Source: the human T2T-CHM13v2.0 reference genome, Homo sapiens
Assembly: GCF_009914755.1 (NCBI RefSeq)
Contig: NC_060928.1
Length of the DNA stretch: 64,000 bases
Direction: 5' to 3' (one strand)
The notes beneath the pieces were generated by a model. The model saw nothing but the letters and a program-made list of their open reading frames with translations. It had not been told where the DNA came from and made no database searches. Below are positions 93 to 64,000 of this stretch, in pieces; positions within the stretch are counted from its first letter, which is position 1, and every line of letters begins with the position of its first letter. The translations under genes and the position numbers were made by a program.

Positions 93-678
93 TGTAAAAA
101 GTAAAGTAGAGGTTCCTTTTCAAAGACTTTCCTCCTCATCTGATTAGGAATAAATAGTAACCTCTCTTAGAAGCAAAATTTATTCAAAGACCTGTTAACA
201 TTCTTAAATATCTGCTAGCTGTAATAAAGAAATCAATGTACTTTATGTTCTTAGCTCCCACAATTTAGCCTAAATATTTGCCCTGGCATGCTTATACTGG
301 TCCAAGTGGGCATTAGGTCATAGCCTGTTCCTCTTCCTTATTTAGAGGTGTTTTTCCCTTCTCAGCATTCCACAAGTTACTTCCTCCTTCCTTTGTTCTC
401 CTCTGCCTTTGCCTCTTTTAAGAATTTCTAAGTTGCTAGCCAATCAAGACAAATACAGAATGTGAAGTCCCGTTCTAGCCAATGGAAACCAGTCACAACA
501 GTAAGGTGGACGGGTCAGGTTATAAATGACCCTGCCTCCTTTGTTCGGTGTACTCTTGTGGCAAAACTGCTGGCGAGTGTACTCTTTCCGCAGAAAGTAA
601 AAATGGCCTTGCTAAAGAAATTAGTTTTATGTTCAAGTGCTATTTCTTTACGGCACCAAGAAATAAGCATTTCTAGCA
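93..678 (+). mobile_element. Solo ERV1 LTR, LTR10-type (probably LTR10C), inserted into an older ERV remnant
   Basis: TGTAAAAAGTAAAGTAGAGG...AAGCATTTCTAGCA with TG...CA ends; 5-bp TSD GTCCT at 88-92 and 679-683; closely similar inverted copy at 24655-25245. Subfamily assigned from memory. Confidence 0.8.
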
Positions 679-2560: not shown

Positions 2561-3068
2561 AGGGCCCAAGTCTCACTCCCCTCAAAATTCAGGGTTCTGG
2601 GCCGATCCTCAGCTTCCTCGTTTGGAAAATTCTGGCTGCCCCCAGGGCCCGCTGAAGGTTCCATGGAGAGTGGCGGTGAATGCATTTTGGAAGCGGGCCG
2701 TGCAAGAGAAGAAAGAATTGTATGTGCACAAGGTTCAGGCATAACGCGTTTGTTCCTGCTCGGCTCAAACGGGAGTTTGCTGCCAAAGACATGAACTGCG
2801 ATCAGTTTTAATTCTATCAGTTATTTTTGATTTTTATTCTGTAATTGTGCAGTCTTTGTCAAAGTAGTTTTCTCTCCTAAACGGCCTCCCGGCTCTCCCC
2901 GGTCTTTCCTTCGCTTGCTAGGTTGTAAAGAATAGTAGTAGTCATGACTTTTGTAGCACTTTGTAAAGTCACCTAATGGAAGATTGCTGAGGTCCTGGTT
3001 TTGACCTTTGAAATAGTGCCGTCTGTGCAGAGTTCTGAGCTTGCGATTTTGGCGCTGCAGCGGAATAA

Positions 3069-3374
<306 letters not shown>

Positions 3375-5131
3375 GGAACAAGTCTTTTATCCATTGTACA
3401 TCTTCAGGGCTTTTCCATTGTTCTGCTGAGCTGTGGTTCAGGCTCAGTTGTGCGAGTGATTGATTACCTGGCTACTGTAATGCTTGTACTTTTTTTTTTT
3501 TTTAATTATTCCATTTCAGCTCACATTGGAGAACCATGGTTTTCGTATCCTAGCTGATTATATTCTTAGCATTTCAGTCCTTTGCAACTTGGTTTGTTGG
3601 GGAAGGCGGTTATAGTCATCTAATTTTTCTTGGGGACAGTACTACTGTGGCTACAGTCATGAGAGAGTTTACTTTTTCAATGTCTTGTTTCCAACCAAGT
3701 CCACGCTTTCATGCTTGCTTTTTAAAAACAAAAACAAAAAAACCTTTTACTATTAGGTATTATATATCTCAATTTTCTTCTCCTTGGCAAGTTTTTTACA
3801 ACGTTTTTATTTGATTGCATTTTCTTCTAAAAGCTATATCCCTGTTATGTTTTATTTATATGACTTCTTACAGTCTCCCATTTCCTCTGAGATATAATTT
3901 TGGACATACATTGCCCTTTTTATTGTGTGGATCCCCTGGCTGCTAGGTTATAGTATCCCCATAATCTATGTTGTATGTGGACTGGGAGGAGTAACTCCCT
4001 TTAACCTAAAAGTTCCACAGGTTATACTCAAGAGAAAGTTTAGTTTGAGTACGTTTGTATTCCCAGGCTCCACCCAAATCTCCCAAGGCTGTGAGAGTGA
4101 GATTTGTTGTGAGCAGGAATAGAACAATGTGTTTTTTAGAAACATTTTAACAACATCTTAGTAACAAAATATTAGGGCCTTAAGCAGCCTCCAGGAACAT
4201 TATGGGAAATGGATCCAGAAACTTGTGGCTGGTGTCCTTGAAGACAGCAGTGGAAAAAGATTAGAAACTAAGTAGAAAGCGTCACTTCAACTTTTGTAGA
4301 AAATCAGAGTGCTTAGTTCTTTGAATGCTGCATCCATCATTGGCCAAAAATGGATGTTGTGTTGCATTAAAAGGCAGAGGGGCAATACCTAAAATTACAG
4401 GTATGGTGTTGGAGCTTTCACCTGACAAAGGAGTAAGGAGAAATGATTGACATTAATGGAGAACACAGGCTTGTGCTTGTCAATCAAACTCTTAAATAGG
4501 TGGACCAGGGAGTGCCTTTTGAAACTTAAGGGAAAAAAAAGCTATTTATGCCATAGGCTGGACACATAATGGAACTGTCATTCTGAAAGGTTATAAAGAC
4601 CAGAAATCTATAAAGTGGACGACCATAAGAAACAGTTCCATCCTTATGTAACACAGTTTGGAAAAACCTCAGTTACTTTAGTTGACAGCTCCAATCCTCT
4701 AAAACATTTGTGAGCAATGCTTTGCAGTGGTTTAGCTTATCTGCTTTTGCACCCTACCCTGTAGCATGCAGTTCTAGGCAGTATTGCTTCATTCTTTATG
4801 CTCCTTGACCAACAGCTTTTGGCATAGGGTAAATCTGTTTTGCTTATTGAGTGCCAGAGACGAATTAGTTGATGTGTTTTGAGTACAGATGGGCTACAGT
4901 TCAATATAAGAAGTTGGATGGTCTGCATGCTAGCTCTGCCTCATGCAGTATTAACATGGGACTTTACCTCTGTGTCTCGGTTTTCTCATCTCTAAAGTAG
5001 ACTAATGCTAGTACTGGCCTCGTAGGGAGAGAATTGAATAAATTCAATGAATTCATGCATATGTCAAGCAGTTACATATATCAAGCATATGTCAAGCACT
5101 TACACAGTGTCTGGCATATAATAAGAGTTCA

Positions 5132-24654: not shown

Positions 24655-25245
24655 TGTTAGAAATGCTTGTTCTTTGGTGCTGTAAAGAAATAGCACTTGA
24701 AATAAATTTAATTTCCTCAGCAAGACCATTTTTACTTTCTGCAGAAAGGGTACACTCGCCAGCATTTTTGCCACAAGAGTACACCGAACAAAGGAGACAG
24801 GGTCATTTATAACCTGACACGTCCATCTTACTGCTGTGTCCGGTTTCTATTGGCTGGGACGGGACTTCACATTCAAATGTATTTGTCTTGATTGGCTAGC
24901 AACTTAGAACTTTTTGAAAGAGGCAAAGGCAGATGAGAACAAAGGAAGGAGGAAGTAACTTGTGGAATGCTGAGAAAGGTAAAAACACCTCTAAATAAGG
25001 AAGAGGAACAGGCTATGACCTAATGCCCACTTGGACCAGTATAAGCATGCCAGGGCAAATATTTAGGCTAAATTGTGGGAGCTAAGAACATAAAGTACAT
25101 TGATTTCTTTATTACAGCTAGCAGATATTGAAGAATGTTAACAGGTCTTAGAATAAATTTTGCTTCTAAGAAAAGTTACTATTTATTCTTAATTAGATGG
25201 GGAGGAGAGTCTCTTTGAAGAGGAACTTCTACTTTACTTTTTACA
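24655..25245 (-). mobile_element. Solo ERV1 LTR, LTR10-type (591 bp)
   Basis: Reverse-complement homologue of 93-678; TG...CA ends; flanked by TTAA on both sides. Confidence 0.8.
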
Positions 25246-59884: not shown

Positions 59885-61088
59885 TGACAATTTTTAAAAA
59901 TGTTTTATTACAAAGCTTCTTTTAAAAAAATGCTCAGCACATTAACTCAAACTGGAATGACAAACGTTAGGATGACAGTTTTGGGCAAAGGCTGTGCCTT
60001 GCTTTTTTAAAAAATGGGTACATCAATGCTCATTTTAACAACTGGCATAAAATCCCACTAATTGGCTAATAAAAACAGATACAAATACAGAACATTTAAA
60101 GTAATAACAATTCAAGTGCTGGGCTTTTTACAACAAGGGGGTGATAAGGAAAGAAATGAAAATTCACTGCAAACCAGTCTGCTGAACGCATCTGTTAAGG
60201 TTTACTGTTTAAAAAAAGAAAAGAAGAAAACAGAAGAAAAAATAAACTGAAATAGGGCTGCCAATTGCTACCAACAGAGTGGGTTTGGCTATTACATTTA
60301 TTTAGCTCTACTGAACACCTTACAAGGGCGGAGAAGCCACTATGTGTTACAGGCAATTCACAGAGAAGCCACTTACCAGACAAGCTGTCTCAGAAAAAGA
60401 AGGCTTCTTTTTATGTCATTATTTCAAACTTTTCCAGAACTTTCAATTTTATTTAAAAGCTCATAGCTAGCAAAATATACAAGAAAATTAAAACTAAAAA
60501 GTGTAAATTAAAAAAATTCAAGTTTAAAAAAGCAAAAAAAAACGATCCTTTTGCACTGTTAAATAAAAGCTTTAGGAGAAAAGAAAAGAAAGAAAAATGA
60601 AGCAGAAACAAAGAGGGAACTCTTCCATGAACTCCTCCACTGGGGTGCTGATGGATGTGCTGGTTGCTGGCTCCAGTTGCGCATGACAGGCAAATGCAGC
60701 CAAGTTACCGTCCTTGCCGAAAGGTTACAGGTTTGGATGCAAGATGCTCTGGGAAGTGCACGCAGATATGAGGGGAGAAAAGCTGCTCAGCTGCCCCACA
60801 GCCTGCTAGCATTCTCATGTGCTTTTACATTTCCTTTTAAAAAACCTTTTTATGCTTTATTTTGGAACTTGGCTCTTGCAGTAGACGAAAGAGGGGTTGG
60901 CAGTGATTGTCTTTATGGATCAGCGTCTCTAGCAGTGACCTCAGGGTAAAATTGATGTCAGTGTTCCTTTGGGGTCGACTGGGCAGGCCGTGGAGACAGT
61001 CTGGGTTTTCAACAAGCTTCCATCTCCAGAAGAGGTCCTGGGGTCGCTGCCTTGGCTTTGCACGTTGGGAATGAGCTTCGTTTTCCAC
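59885..61088 (-). other. LEF1: LEF1 terminal exon (3'UTR); poly(A) signals AATAAA at 59904-59909 and 60448-60453
   Basis: Minus-strand acceptor TTTGTTCCTTCTTGAG|GTGGAAAACG at 61088; recognised LEF1 tail coding sequence; AU-rich UTR. The cleavage site is approximate. Confidence 0.9.
61009..61088 (-). CDS. LEF1: LEF1 alternative C-terminal 'N-tail' coded in the terminal exon
   Basis: (G)GT GGA AAA CGA...TGT TGA = GGKRSSFPTCKAKAATPGPLLEMEAC*, the known LEF1 tail used when the preceding exon is skipped. Confidence 0.88.
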
Positions 61089-62585
61089 CTCAAGAAGGAA
61101 CAAATGAAATGCTATTAATATGAATTTGCCGTAGGCCTTAAGATTATAACCTCTATTCCATACCATATATGTCTTACAACCTCTGCATTTAATTAATCCA
61201 TTTTGTTAATTTGGGGATGGCTAAAATGAATTGCCCTATCAGTCAAAAATCCTGAGAGTACACTACAGAGTTAATATAGTGACATTTTTACTTTGGTTCC
61301 ATGTATACGTATGCCCAGAGTTATGATGTGAAGTGTAGTGAATACTCTGGGTCATGGTAAACAGAACAAAAAAAAAGTTTGAAAAACACCAGTAGGAAAC
61401 AGGCAAACATGAATAGGGAAGGCGGGCAACAGCCAGATCAGGGAAAGATGTGTCATTCTGCAGTGTTTGGTGTTTTTGGTCCACTGTGGGAAGCCACTGT
61501 ATGATTCTACATAGGACAGACATAATCACATTACCCAACGCACTGCCAACTCCCGTGACGCTATGTGCTCTGTCCGCTCACACTCACAGCCCAGAGGATA
61601 CAAACCGCTCCCTTTTTCCTTAAGATCTTACAATTTTCAAGATTTTTTTTTCCTTCCTAACATCAGGGATCTCTAATGATAGCCTCGGAAAGGACACTCA
61701 GCAAATATGTTAAAATAATGTTGCCAGATATTGGTGATAATGATTTTCAAATAAGAGAACTCCCACATCCTCAAAGCTTTAATGATCTGAGATTTTTTAA
61801 AAAGTGATTAAAAGTAAAATGTAACATTGTAACAAGATGAGACAAAGACAAAAGGAAAGTAAAAGCATGGCAAAGTTCCGTTCCTTCACTCCAGAGAGCA
61901 CCTGCTTCCGCTGCTTTGAACTTGGGGAGGCTGCTTTCCTTTGGTGGCAGCGATGCTGGAAGCACCTTCTCAACCTGGGTCCCTTGACAGCCTCAGATGA
62001 ATCCCAACACTTTGTGCTTGTGATTGTGCTATCCGTGTTACAAGCACAAGTTTCCTTTTAGAAACTCATTCTAAATAATGGTGGATTATCGTACACTTTC
62101 ATTTCAATGGAAAAAGAAAGTAAAAGAGAAATAAAAGGAAACTTTGACATAGTTTAATAATGAATACAAAAGTCTAGATGGCAAGTTACAGTCCACAGAG
62201 TACTTTCCATGGAAGGATGGTGATCTATGGAATGGGAACTGCGAGGACACCTGCCCTTCAGGCTTTTGGAAAGAGAGGTTTGGCTCCTATATTTAAAGTG
62301 CTCACAAAGTGCACAGCACAGAGCAAGCCCTGCAAGCAGGTTAGCTAGTATTATTATTCCAATTATGCCCAATGCGGCCCCTAAAGATGATCAGAACTGC
62401 AAAGAAGCTATTTGTATACCTGGGTAGCTACTGAAAAAGCAAAAACCAACCAACCAACAAAAAACAAAATAGGAGGAAATCAGCCACAGAATGATTTCAA
62501 CTGAGGAGGTCCTCCAATGACAATTTCATTTTCTATTCTCCTGGAAAATCAACCATTCCCTGTTTAACAGGAAAACACTACAGCA

Positions 62586-63367
62586 TTGTGTTAATCACTA
62601 TATTATCACTTGTACTCAGCTTAAGAGAGGAGGAGAAGGCACCCTTAGGTAAGGCAGTGAAGGGACAAGAAGACTGGTGGAGCCGGAAGTGCAGGGTGCT
62701 CTAGATTGGAGGTGTTAGCCCTGCTTGAGAATGGGGCCACAGCAGGGCCATGGAAGTTGTCTGTACCTCAGTACTTCACAGTTCGCTGTGCCAGGCCCAC
62801 AGAGGTATGGATCTTGCACGCAGGAGGATCAAAGAGCTACGAAGGACCCTGCCTTTCTACGGAGAAAGAAACAGGGCTCTAGCAGAGCCTGGGGTGGGAG
62901 AGAGGGCACCCCACAGATTCCTATTTACATTATAATTTTGCATCACAGATTTTCAAAGGCTTGGTCCAGGTTGCTCTTCCTGGGAAGGTTTTCCTCTCAG
63001 TCTGACATGAAAACATTTAGTTTCCTGGTGAGGCCTGGCCTTGCAGTCCTAGGCTAGCGCCTGAGACAAGCACTGGGACTCAGAATAGACTCGCCATTGG
63101 CAGCCAGGAACGCCTGAGGGAGACAACCTGCCCTTCTGTTGGGCCATCCCACCACTGCCTGGCACAGCGAACTGTGAAGTACTGAGGTACAGACAACTTC
63201 CATGGCCCTGCTGTGGCCCCATTCTCAAGCAGGGCTAACACCTCCAATCTAGAGCACCCTGCACTTCCGGCTCCACCAGTCTTCTTGTCCCTTCACTGCC
63301 TTACCTAAGGGTGCCTTCTCCTCCTCTCTTAAGCTGAGTACAAGTGATAATATAGTGATTAACACAA
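62586..63367. repeat. Perfect 211-bp inverted repeat with a 360-bp spacer, in the LEF1 last intron
   Basis: 62586-62796 is the exact reverse complement of 63157-63367 on base-by-base comparison. Confidence 0.97.
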
Positions 63368-64000
63368 ACATGGGTGCCCAGAGATAGCCATTTACCTAAA
63401 GGATAGTATGTCACTTGCCAAGAAAGAGTCTATATCTCCTAATAAAGTCATTTCTTTCCACAGTCTCACATTTTCCCACCTGTTATTTCCTTATTCCATG
63501 GGGTCACCTTGCAAATTCTCCTGGAAAGTTGGCTTCAGAGAACCTCTGTACAGTTGCTTACCAAAAAGCAACTAATCCCTTTCAGGGACTAGTGCTTAAA
63601 AAAAAAAAAGAGCAAAGAAATTCCTTCACTATGAAATGAGGCAGTTTGTCCCTGGTGGCTCTTTTAAAATACAGGGATGTCAGGGGAGACCAAGTCTTAC
63701 TTCCAAGTGGGAGAAACGGGGGCCTTGTAGTGTTGCTTTACAGATATAAAACAGGTCCAGTCCAGATTATTTTCAAGAAACCACAGGCATGAGGCTCCAG
63801 GGGCTGGAGCTTTCCCACATCTAAGGCTTCACTGGGGGGCTGCGGCTGAAGCTGGGCCAGGCCAGGCGAGCCCCGGCACAGCCCAACCCACCAGTGAAGT
63901 CTGCGCAATCAAAGCCAGCAATTACTGCTCTCCGGCTGCGGCTGGGCTTCAAAGGGAGTGAGGCAAGGCCCATCTTACATATGTTCAGACTTGGGCTCCC

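What the first reader, a model, noticed from the sequence alone, without database searches (positions are those of the whole stretch)
62586..63367. Perfect 211-bp non-Alu inverted repeat in the last intron of LEF1
Seen: arms 62586-62796 and 63157-63367 are 100% complementary, including their CpGs, around a 360-bp spacer. I recognise no Alu, L1 or TIR/TSD signature. Every other repeat pair of this length in the window is diverged, so zero mismatches implies a very recent inverted duplication or continuing arm-to-arm gene conversion. Inference: (a) the spacer could be a recurrently flipping micro-inversion that short reads would miss; (b) LEF1 pre-mRNA would fold into a 211-bp perfect duplex, a substrate for ADAR, Dicer or dsRNA sensors, about 1.5 kb upstream of the terminal-exon acceptor, where it might affect tail choice.
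Basis: partly seen in the sequence, partly recalled or inferred. Interest (0 to 1): 0.8.

Follow-up and report, generated by a model that had tools for sequence, protein, structure and literature searches.

The report
Young inverted duplication in LEF1 intron
A 211-base stretch of ordinary single-copy DNA in the last intron of the human LEF1 gene has been copied once, backwards, 360 bases away; this is a real but probably neutral structural mutation of a known kind.

Summary
Arms 62586-62796 and 63157-63367 are 211 nt and 100% complementary, with a 360-nt spacer. The arm occurs only twice in the 3.1-Gb assembly. Spacer and both flanks are unique. A real interspersed repeat from the same window gave 522 candidates in the same tool. 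There is no target-site duplication, and similarity drops to random immediately beyond all four arm ends. So it is not an Alu, L1 or transposon pair, and nothing suggests an old, decaying palindrome.

Best reading: a one-step local inverted duplication (replication template switch or fold-back repair) of known kind. Events up to 318 bp are reported in human haplotypes.

Zero mismatches does not require a very recent origin or gene conversion. The mean wait to a first difference is 1.9-5.3 My, and the 95% upper age bound is 5.6-15.8 My.

A strand-composition classifier weakly suggests the right arm and spacer are native and the left arm is the copy.

The LEF1 pre-mRNA is predicted to form the full 211-bp stem. 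Spacer flipping, editing and splicing effects could not be tested: no other human or primate sequence was available. Interest is low to moderate.

The parts
62586..62796 (.). Left arm of the inverted duplication (211 nt). It is transcribed last in LEF1 sense and is weakly indicated as the inverted copy.
   Evidence: 100% complementary to 63157-63367. Only two genomic copies. Orientation log-likelihood ratio -0.66 to -2.13, i.e. anti-native relative to LEF1 intron composition.
62797..63156 (.). 360-nt unique spacer, which forms the loop of the predicted hairpin.
   Evidence: Single genomic match at E<=10. No inverted similarity between its two halves above shuffles: score 8 against a shuffle mean of 9.9. 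Orientation LLR +0.59 to +1.89, i.e. native-like.
63157..63367 (.). Right arm of the inverted duplication (211 nt). It is transcribed first in LEF1 sense and is weakly indicated as the original.
   Evidence: 100% complementary to 62586-62796. Orientation LLR +0.81 to +2.45, i.e. native-like.

Best explanation
This is a genuine local inverted duplication of single-copy intronic DNA. One 211-bp segment was copied once in reverse-complement orientation to a site 360 bp away. The event was a single replication or repair error: either a template switch of the nascent strand to a nearby complementary template and back, or fold-back (snap-back) priming at a break followed by rejoining.

It happened within roughly the last 6-16 My, possibly much more recently, so the arms have simply not had time to diverge. 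The right arm and spacer are probably ancestral and the left arm the copy, but this is a weak inference.

Two consequences follow. (i) The LEF1 pre-mRNA contains a perfect 211-bp intronic hairpin, which should be a good nuclear ADAR substrate and is removed with the intron. (ii) The DNA carries an inverted repeat at about the minimum length usable for homologous recombination, so rare spacer inversion or arm-to-arm conversion is possible. The most likely selective status is neutral.

Shown: the structure, its uniqueness, the sharp edges, the predicted fold and the age bound. Inferred: the mechanism, the polarity, editing and neutrality.
For: - Perfect 211-nt complementarity with a 360-nt spacer.
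- The arm has exactly 2 matches in the 3.1-Gb assembly. The spacer has 1 match at E<=10.
- Junction-spanning queries of 500 nt hit only themselves plus the other arm.
- As a positive control, a repeat at window 124-630 gave 522 candidates, 40 of them scored at 90-93%.
- A sensitive BLAST of 62186-63767 against 181 kb rich in interspersed repeats gave, apart from the self and arm-to-arm alignments, 11 short matches of 24-112 nt with E 0.044-0.86. Ten lie in the flanks (A-rich run at 62431-62509; 63579-63684) and one 24-nt match lies in the spacer (62934-62957). None lies in an arm.
- In-register complementarity beyond the arms is 2-8 of 20 per bin at both the inner and outer edges. Gapped scores of flanks and spacer halves sit within the shuffle range. 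A discrete event with sharp ends fits this pattern.
- Zero differences is expected for young events: the 95% upper age is 5.6-15.8 My.
- The size is inside the reported range. Template-switch patterns up to 318 bp per individual are reported in human haplotype assemblies (preprint 10.1101/2021.11.26.470150, passages read).
- Strand-composition Markov models were trained on LEF1 introns. Their cross-validated orientation accuracy was 0.646-0.712 on 559 segments of 211 nt. They score the right arm and spacer as native and the left arm as inverted at all five orders tried.
- Both RNA and DNA folds give the full stem (z -33; z -42).
Against: - No ancestral allele was seen. No other human haplotype or primate orthologue could be reached, so polarity, age and mechanism are not directly shown.
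- No microhomology is visible outside the arms at any junction. Microhomology inside the arms cannot be recognised without an outgroup.
- The polarity evidence is weak. My normal approximation from the means and SDs gives likelihood ratios of only about 1.5-4. The empirical tail ratios are 0.47/0.177 to 0.132/0.02. The training text was not repeat-masked.
- A 360-bp distance plus a 211-bp copy is large for the short-range template-switch class. The same preprint's short-read filter discarded events with point 1-to-4 distances over 250 bp.
- Neutrality is assumed, not tested.
Confidence: 0.6

Rival explanations
1. The inverted repeat is older and is kept identical by recurrent arm-to-arm gene conversion. 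The same recombination intermediates recurrently flip the 360-bp spacer.
For: - The arms are perfectly identical, including 2 CpG each.
- Candidate IR-flanked inversions as small as 197 bp, with IRs as short as 140 bp, are catalogued. Both orientations were seen for 155 of 612 regions (PMC13629690, passages).
Against: - Identity is not needed to be maintained: the age bound is 5.6-15.8 My without conversion.
- The edges are abrupt, with no decayed extension of the repeat.
- Well-characterised NAHR inversions had IRs of 654 bp to 24.2 kb (PMC6748972, passages), so 211 bp is at the low end.
- The locus and 'LEF1' were not found in the 3 held supplementary files of the 612-region catalogue. That search used hg38 coordinate prefixes recalled from memory.
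- The spacer composition looks native-oriented (weak).
Confidence: 0.13
2. The repeat arose together with an inversion. Staggered breaks or a complex FoSTeS/MMBIR event inverted the spacer and duplicated one breakpoint segment in inverted orientation. The spacer is then inverted relative to the ancestor and one arm is a breakpoint duplication.
For: - The architecture (arm, segment, inverted arm) is what this model predicts.
Against: The strand-composition classifier scores the spacer as native-oriented (LLR +0.59 to +1.89) together with the right arm. This model requires the spacer to be inverted. The evidence is weak.
Confidence: 0.12
3. The hairpin is a selected functional RNA element. It would be an intronic dsRNA acting through ADAR, Dicer or dsRNA-binding proteins to influence LEF1 3' processing, or a nascent small-RNA gene.
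For: - The full 211-bp stem is predicted in the LEF1-sense RNA (MFE -622 kcal/mol, z -33).
- Template switching has been proposed as a source of new miRNA hairpins (PMC10710096, search listing and start of abstract only).
- Highly paired long dsRNAs are rare: 31,017 of 5,134,754 predictions are >96% paired (PMC11838218, section 10).
Against: - No Rfam family matches. The only hit in 61000-64000 is mir-679 at 20 bits against a gathering score of 80, at 61908-61952 and outside the repeat.
- The structure is intronic, so it is removed by splicing.
- No paper linking LEF1 with such an element turned up in two searches.
- Perfect identity is explained by youth alone.
- No conservation data were available.
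Confidence: 0.05
4. The second arm is an assembly artefact or a mutation private to the cell line.
For: Only one assembly could be examined.
Against: - The structure has a 360-bp unique spacer and clean junctions into unique flanks on both sides. A spacerless fold-back chimera would not look like this.
- Nothing further could be tested here.
Confidence: 0.04
5. It is a non-autonomous DNA transposon (MITE-like) with 211-bp terminal inverted repeats.
For: Formally, it has terminal inverted repeats around a short core.
Against: - No target-site duplication: the outer junctions read ...ACAGCA| and |ACATGG.
- No other copy of the arm, spacer or junctions exists in the genome, whereas a true repeat family is readily found.
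Confidence: 0.01

Closest known systems
Template-switch mutations (four-point model; Loytynoja & Goldman 2017; Loytynoja 2022 preprint 10.1101/2021.11.26.470150)
   Same: A nearby sequence is copied in reverse complement in one event, creating a perfect inverted repeat. The reported length range reaches 318 bp.
   Different: Most described events are tens of bases long and very local. Here the copy is 211 bp and lies 360 bp from its source. The ancestral allele was not seen, so membership is not proven.
Fold-back inverted duplications (for example PMC3907307 and PMC10622511; search listings and starts of abstracts only)
   Same: Inverted duplication separated by a unique spacer, explained by fold-back priming at a break.
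   Different: Those events are kilobases to megabases long, often terminal, and associated with dicentric intermediates. This one is a 211-bp interstitial copy with both flanks intact.
IR-flanked polymorphic inversions formed by NAHR (PMC6748972; PMC13629690)
   Same: A unique segment flanked by highly identical inverted repeats. The catalogue reaches down to 197-bp segments and 140-bp IRs.
   Different: No second orientation is known for this locus. It is absent from the held supplementary tables. The well-studied cases have IRs of 654 bp or more.
Intronic inverted Alu pairs as ADAR and dsRBP substrates (for example 10.1101/2024.12.07.627371, start of abstract only)
   Same: [quoted passage not shown]
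   Different: The arms are not Alu or any other interspersed repeat. Pairing is 100%, whereas the inverted pairs of interspersed repeats listed in this window are 71-96% complementary.

Membership tests
Template-switch / local inverted duplication | Exact reverse-complement copy of a nearby sequence on the same chromosome | tested here: met
   211 of 211 bases complementary, source and copy 360 nt apart.
Template-switch / local inverted duplication | An ancestral or alternative allele lacking the copy (outgroup or polymorphism) | not testable with these tools
   Only the window's own assembly is held. Pattern scans of genome contigs and viral contigs gave 0 hits.
Template-switch / local inverted duplication | Copy length within the documented range | tested here: met
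   The longest per-individual event reported is 318 bp (passages of the preprint). This copy is 211 bp.
Template-switch / local inverted duplication | Microhomology at switch points | tested here: inconclusive
   None is visible outside the arms at any of the four junctions. Microhomology inside the arms cannot be seen without the ancestral sequence.
DNA transposon / MITE | Target-site duplication flanking the terminal inverted repeats | tested here: not met
   The outer flanks read ...CACTACAGCA| and |ACATGGGTGC, with no direct repeat.
DNA transposon / MITE | Multiple dispersed copies in the genome | tested here: not met
   The arm has 2 matches (the two arms) and the spacer has 1. Flank queries hit only themselves plus the other arm. 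The control repeat gave 522 candidates.
Inverted Alu/L1 pair | Arms belong to an interspersed repeat family | tested here: not met
   No further genomic copies. No arm similarity to anything else in 181 kb containing many repeats.
IR-mediated (NAHR) invertible segment | Highly identical inverted repeats flanking a unique segment, within the catalogued size range | tested here: met
   211-bp, 100% identical IRs around 360 bp. The catalogue range is IRs of 140 bp-190 kb and segments of 197 bp-4.4 Mb.
IR-mediated (NAHR) invertible segment | Both orientations observed among haplotypes | not testable with these tools
   No other haplotype was available. The locus was not found in the supplementary tables searched (coordinate prefixes recalled from memory).
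Palindrome under concerted evolution | Orthologous arms in other species, more alike within than between species | not testable with these tools
   No primate genomes were available.
Known structured RNA / miRNA family (Rfam 15) | Match reaching the family's gathering score | tested here: not met
   The only hit in 61000-64000 is mir-679 at 20 bits against a gathering score of 80, E 0.82, outside the repeat.

The most novel reading that the evidence does not exclude
The 211-bp arms act as a recombination switch. The 360-bp spacer toggles orientation recurrently in human germlines or lymphoid cells, while conversion keeps the arms identical. The resulting perfect intronic dsRNA is hyper-edited and measurably alters LEF1 3'-end isoform output. 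The locus would then be one of the smallest non-transposon invertible elements in a human developmental gene, invisible to short reads.
Probability: 0.06. Interest if true: 0.6.

Novelty: new member of a known kind. Interest (0 to 1): 0.25.

Why it matters
If the reading is right, this is a clean and unusually large example of a one-step local inverted duplication in unique human DNA.

- It can calibrate template-switch detection at the 200-bp scale.
- It is a possible polymorphic or lineage-specific marker in LEF1.
- It is a natural test case for how cells handle a perfectly paired, non-Alu intronic dsRNA.

It does not by itself open a long-standing question. Thousands of highly paired inverted repeats are predicted in the genome (31,017 predictions >96% paired), and intronic hairpins are normally removed with the intron.

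Tried and rejected
- Transposon or MITE reading: rejected (no TSD, no other copies).
- Alu/L1 pair and L1 twin-priming: rejected, because the arms and spacer are unique. Twin-priming is said to explain about 85% of inversions under 2 kb (preprint 10.1101/2021.12.20.472354, start of abstract only).
- Rfam scan: nothing relevant.
- Independent copies of the locus: a 37-nt arm pattern gave 0 hits in genome contigs and 0 hits in viral contigs.
- Published tables, searched for 'LEF1' and for hg38/hg19 coordinate prefixes recalled from memory. No occurrences in:
  - 6 files of PMC7954356;
  - 3 files of PMC13629690;
  - 12 of 18 files of PMC6748972, with 6 files not searched;
  - 2 files of PMC11092980.
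  These blanks are weak evidence, because the coordinates are recalled and number formats may differ.
- A recalled PMC id for a great-ape SV paper was not held.
- Literature searches for LEF1 with inverted repeat, dsRNA, inverted duplication, palindrome or hairpin RNA found no paper on this element.
- Residual homology between flanks and spacer, as a trace of the ancestral arrangement: none above shuffles.

Full report
**Observation.** The inverted repeat exists exactly as described. Arms 62586-62796 and 63157-63367 are 211 nt and 100% complementary, with 360 nt between them. A script confirmed exact reverse-complement identity, 2 CpG per arm and 6 CpG in the spacer. Among 68 inverted pairs of >=100 nt in the window (the 25 longest were listed), the next best listed is 96% and the other 23 listed pairs are 71-90%. 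I fetched the rest of LEF1 and ran a self-BLAST of 181,256 bases. Of 1,169 pairs >=100 bp, two were >=90% identical and only this one was >=93%. By the hub's gene table, the repeat lies 1,498 nt from the terminal-exon boundary (61088), and no other LEF1 exon is listed in the window.

**What it is not.** The window's own assembly (3.1 Gb, 24 contigs) could be searched.
- The arm has exactly two matches, the two arms.
- The spacer has one match even at E<=10.
- Two 500-nt queries spanning the outer junctions hit only themselves and the other arm.
- As a positive control for the same tool, the 507-nt stretch at window 124-630 gave 522 first-look candidates. Forty were scored, at 90-93% identity genome-wide. 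This stretch is half of the 96% pair I1, so that pair is an ordinary interspersed repeat.
- A sensitive BLAST of 62186-63767 against the 181 kb, which is full of such repeats, gave 11 short matches besides the self and arm-to-arm alignments. They were 24-112 nt long with E 0.044-0.86. Ten lie in the flanks and one 24-nt match lies in the spacer. None touches an arm.
- There is no target-site duplication at the outer junctions.
- Rfam has nothing here.

So this is not an Alu or L1 pair, not L1 twin-priming, not a MITE and not a known RNA gene. It is duplicated single-copy intron.

**Shape of the event.** Complementarity in register drops at once to the random level beyond all four arm ends: 2-8 matches per 20-nt bin over 180 nt inward and 600 nt outward. 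Gapped alignments of flank against flank, flank against spacer and spacer half against spacer half do not exceed shuffled controls. An old palindrome eroding at its edges, or one homogenised by conversion tracts of varying length, would more naturally show graded borders. Sharp borders fit one discrete copying event.

**Age.** I calculated the expectation with recalled mutation rates of 0.45-1.0e-9 per bp per year and a CpG excess of 1-15x. The mean wait to the first arm difference is 1.9-5.3 My. The 95% upper bound on age is 5.6-15.8 My. P(no difference) at 6.5 My is 0.03-0.29. Perfect identity therefore only says 'younger than roughly the great-ape radiation'. Conversion is not required.

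**Polarity (weak).** LEF1 is on the minus strand, and its introns show the usual transcription-associated strand asymmetry. On the + strand, GC skew is -0.022 and AT skew +0.052, with opposite signs in HADH. I trained Markov models of order 0-4 on LEF1 intron text against its reverse complement.
- Ten-fold held-out 211-nt segments (n=559) were oriented correctly in 0.646-0.712 of cases.
- At every order the right arm scored native (+0.81 to +2.45), the left arm inverted (-0.66 to -2.13) and the spacer native (+0.59 to +1.89).
- From those means and SDs, a normal approximation (my arithmetic) gives likelihood ratios of only about 1.5-4.

The hint is that the right arm and spacer are ancestral and the left arm is the inserted inverted copy. 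That would favour a simple inverted dispersed duplication over an inversion with breakpoint duplication. The hint needs an outgroup.

**Mechanism.** The closest described process is replication template switching. In passages of the preprint 10.1101/2021.11.26.470150, 3,049-3,934 such patterns per individual are reported, the longest 318 bp. Fold-back priming at a break is the related repair route; I saw it only in listings and abstracts (PMC3907307, PMC10622511) and in the discussion passages of PMC8755829. No microhomology is visible outside the arms, and any inside them is invisible without the ancestor. The mechanism is therefore an inference from architecture, not a demonstration.

**Consequences.** The LEF1-sense RNA (982 nt folded) forms the full 211-bp stem: MFE -622 kcal/mol, against a shuffle mean of -326, z -33. 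Single-stranded DNA does likewise (z -42). From established knowledge (recalled), a long perfect nuclear duplex is a promiscuous ADAR substrate, and an intronic one is discarded with the lariat. In the dsRNAscan preprint (PMC11838218, section 10 read), 31,017 of 5,134,754 predicted dsRNAs are >96% paired, and 2,018 are both >300 bp and >96% paired. Such structures are uncommon but not singular.

For DNA, NAHR inversions studied in depth had IRs of 654 bp-24.2 kb (PMC6748972). A 2026 catalogue reaches down to IRs of 140 bp and segments of 197 bp, with both orientations seen in 155 of 612 regions (PMC13629690). Flipping is therefore conceivable, but it would be a small member of a known class. 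Neither 'LEF1' nor my recalled coordinate prefixes occur in the held supplements of these papers. Two literature searches found no paper on this element.

**A recalled lead, not evidence.** As I remember the GRCh38 RefSeq span of LEF1, it differs from the CHM13 span given by the hub (121,372 bp) by only about a dozen bases. If that is correct, there is no private 211-bp gain in CHM13, and both arms are probably in the older reference too. I could not check this.

**What remains open.** No other human haplotype or primate orthologue could be reached. Several points are therefore untested: presence or absence in other genomes, spacer orientation polymorphism, concerted evolution, editing, small RNAs and splicing effects. 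Supplements of the bioRxiv preprints were closed and may list this locus.

**Verdict.** The structure is real and clean, and it is almost certainly a young one-step inverted duplication of unique DNA. It is a new member of a known kind and probably neutral. Interest is 0.25.

Noticed in passing
window 124-630 and 24702-25212: A collinear inverted pair of about 507 nt: 96% over 237 nt and 90% over 173 nt ungapped, and 93% overall. It lies 24 kb apart, spanning the HADH promoter region and an HADH intron. It belongs to a high-copy interspersed family: 522 candidates, 40 scored at 90-93% over the full 507 nt on many chromosomes. The family name was not determined.
   Followed up: partly
window 62619-62640 on + (left arm), and the equivalent text on the LEF1-sense strand within the right arm 63313-63334: The arm contains CTTAG|GTAAGG, a near-consensus 5' splice-site motif. 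In the LEF1 pre-mRNA it appears in sense within the first-transcribed (right) arm and would be buried in the predicted duplex. No splice-site scoring was run and no transcript evidence was available.
   Followed up: no
window 62826-62832 (spacer): ATCAAAG is a match to the TCF/LEF core binding motif (motif recalled from memory), and it lies inside the LEF1 gene's own intron. A 7-mer of this kind is expected by chance every few kilobases.
   Followed up: no
window 62431-62469: An A-rich, CCAA-periodic low-complexity run about 120 nt left of the left arm. It accounts for 4 of the 11 short BLAST matches found near the repeat.
   Followed up: no
window 63700-64000: GC content rises to 0.57-0.615 at the window's end. 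The next LEF1 exon lies beyond the window and was not located.
   Followed up: no
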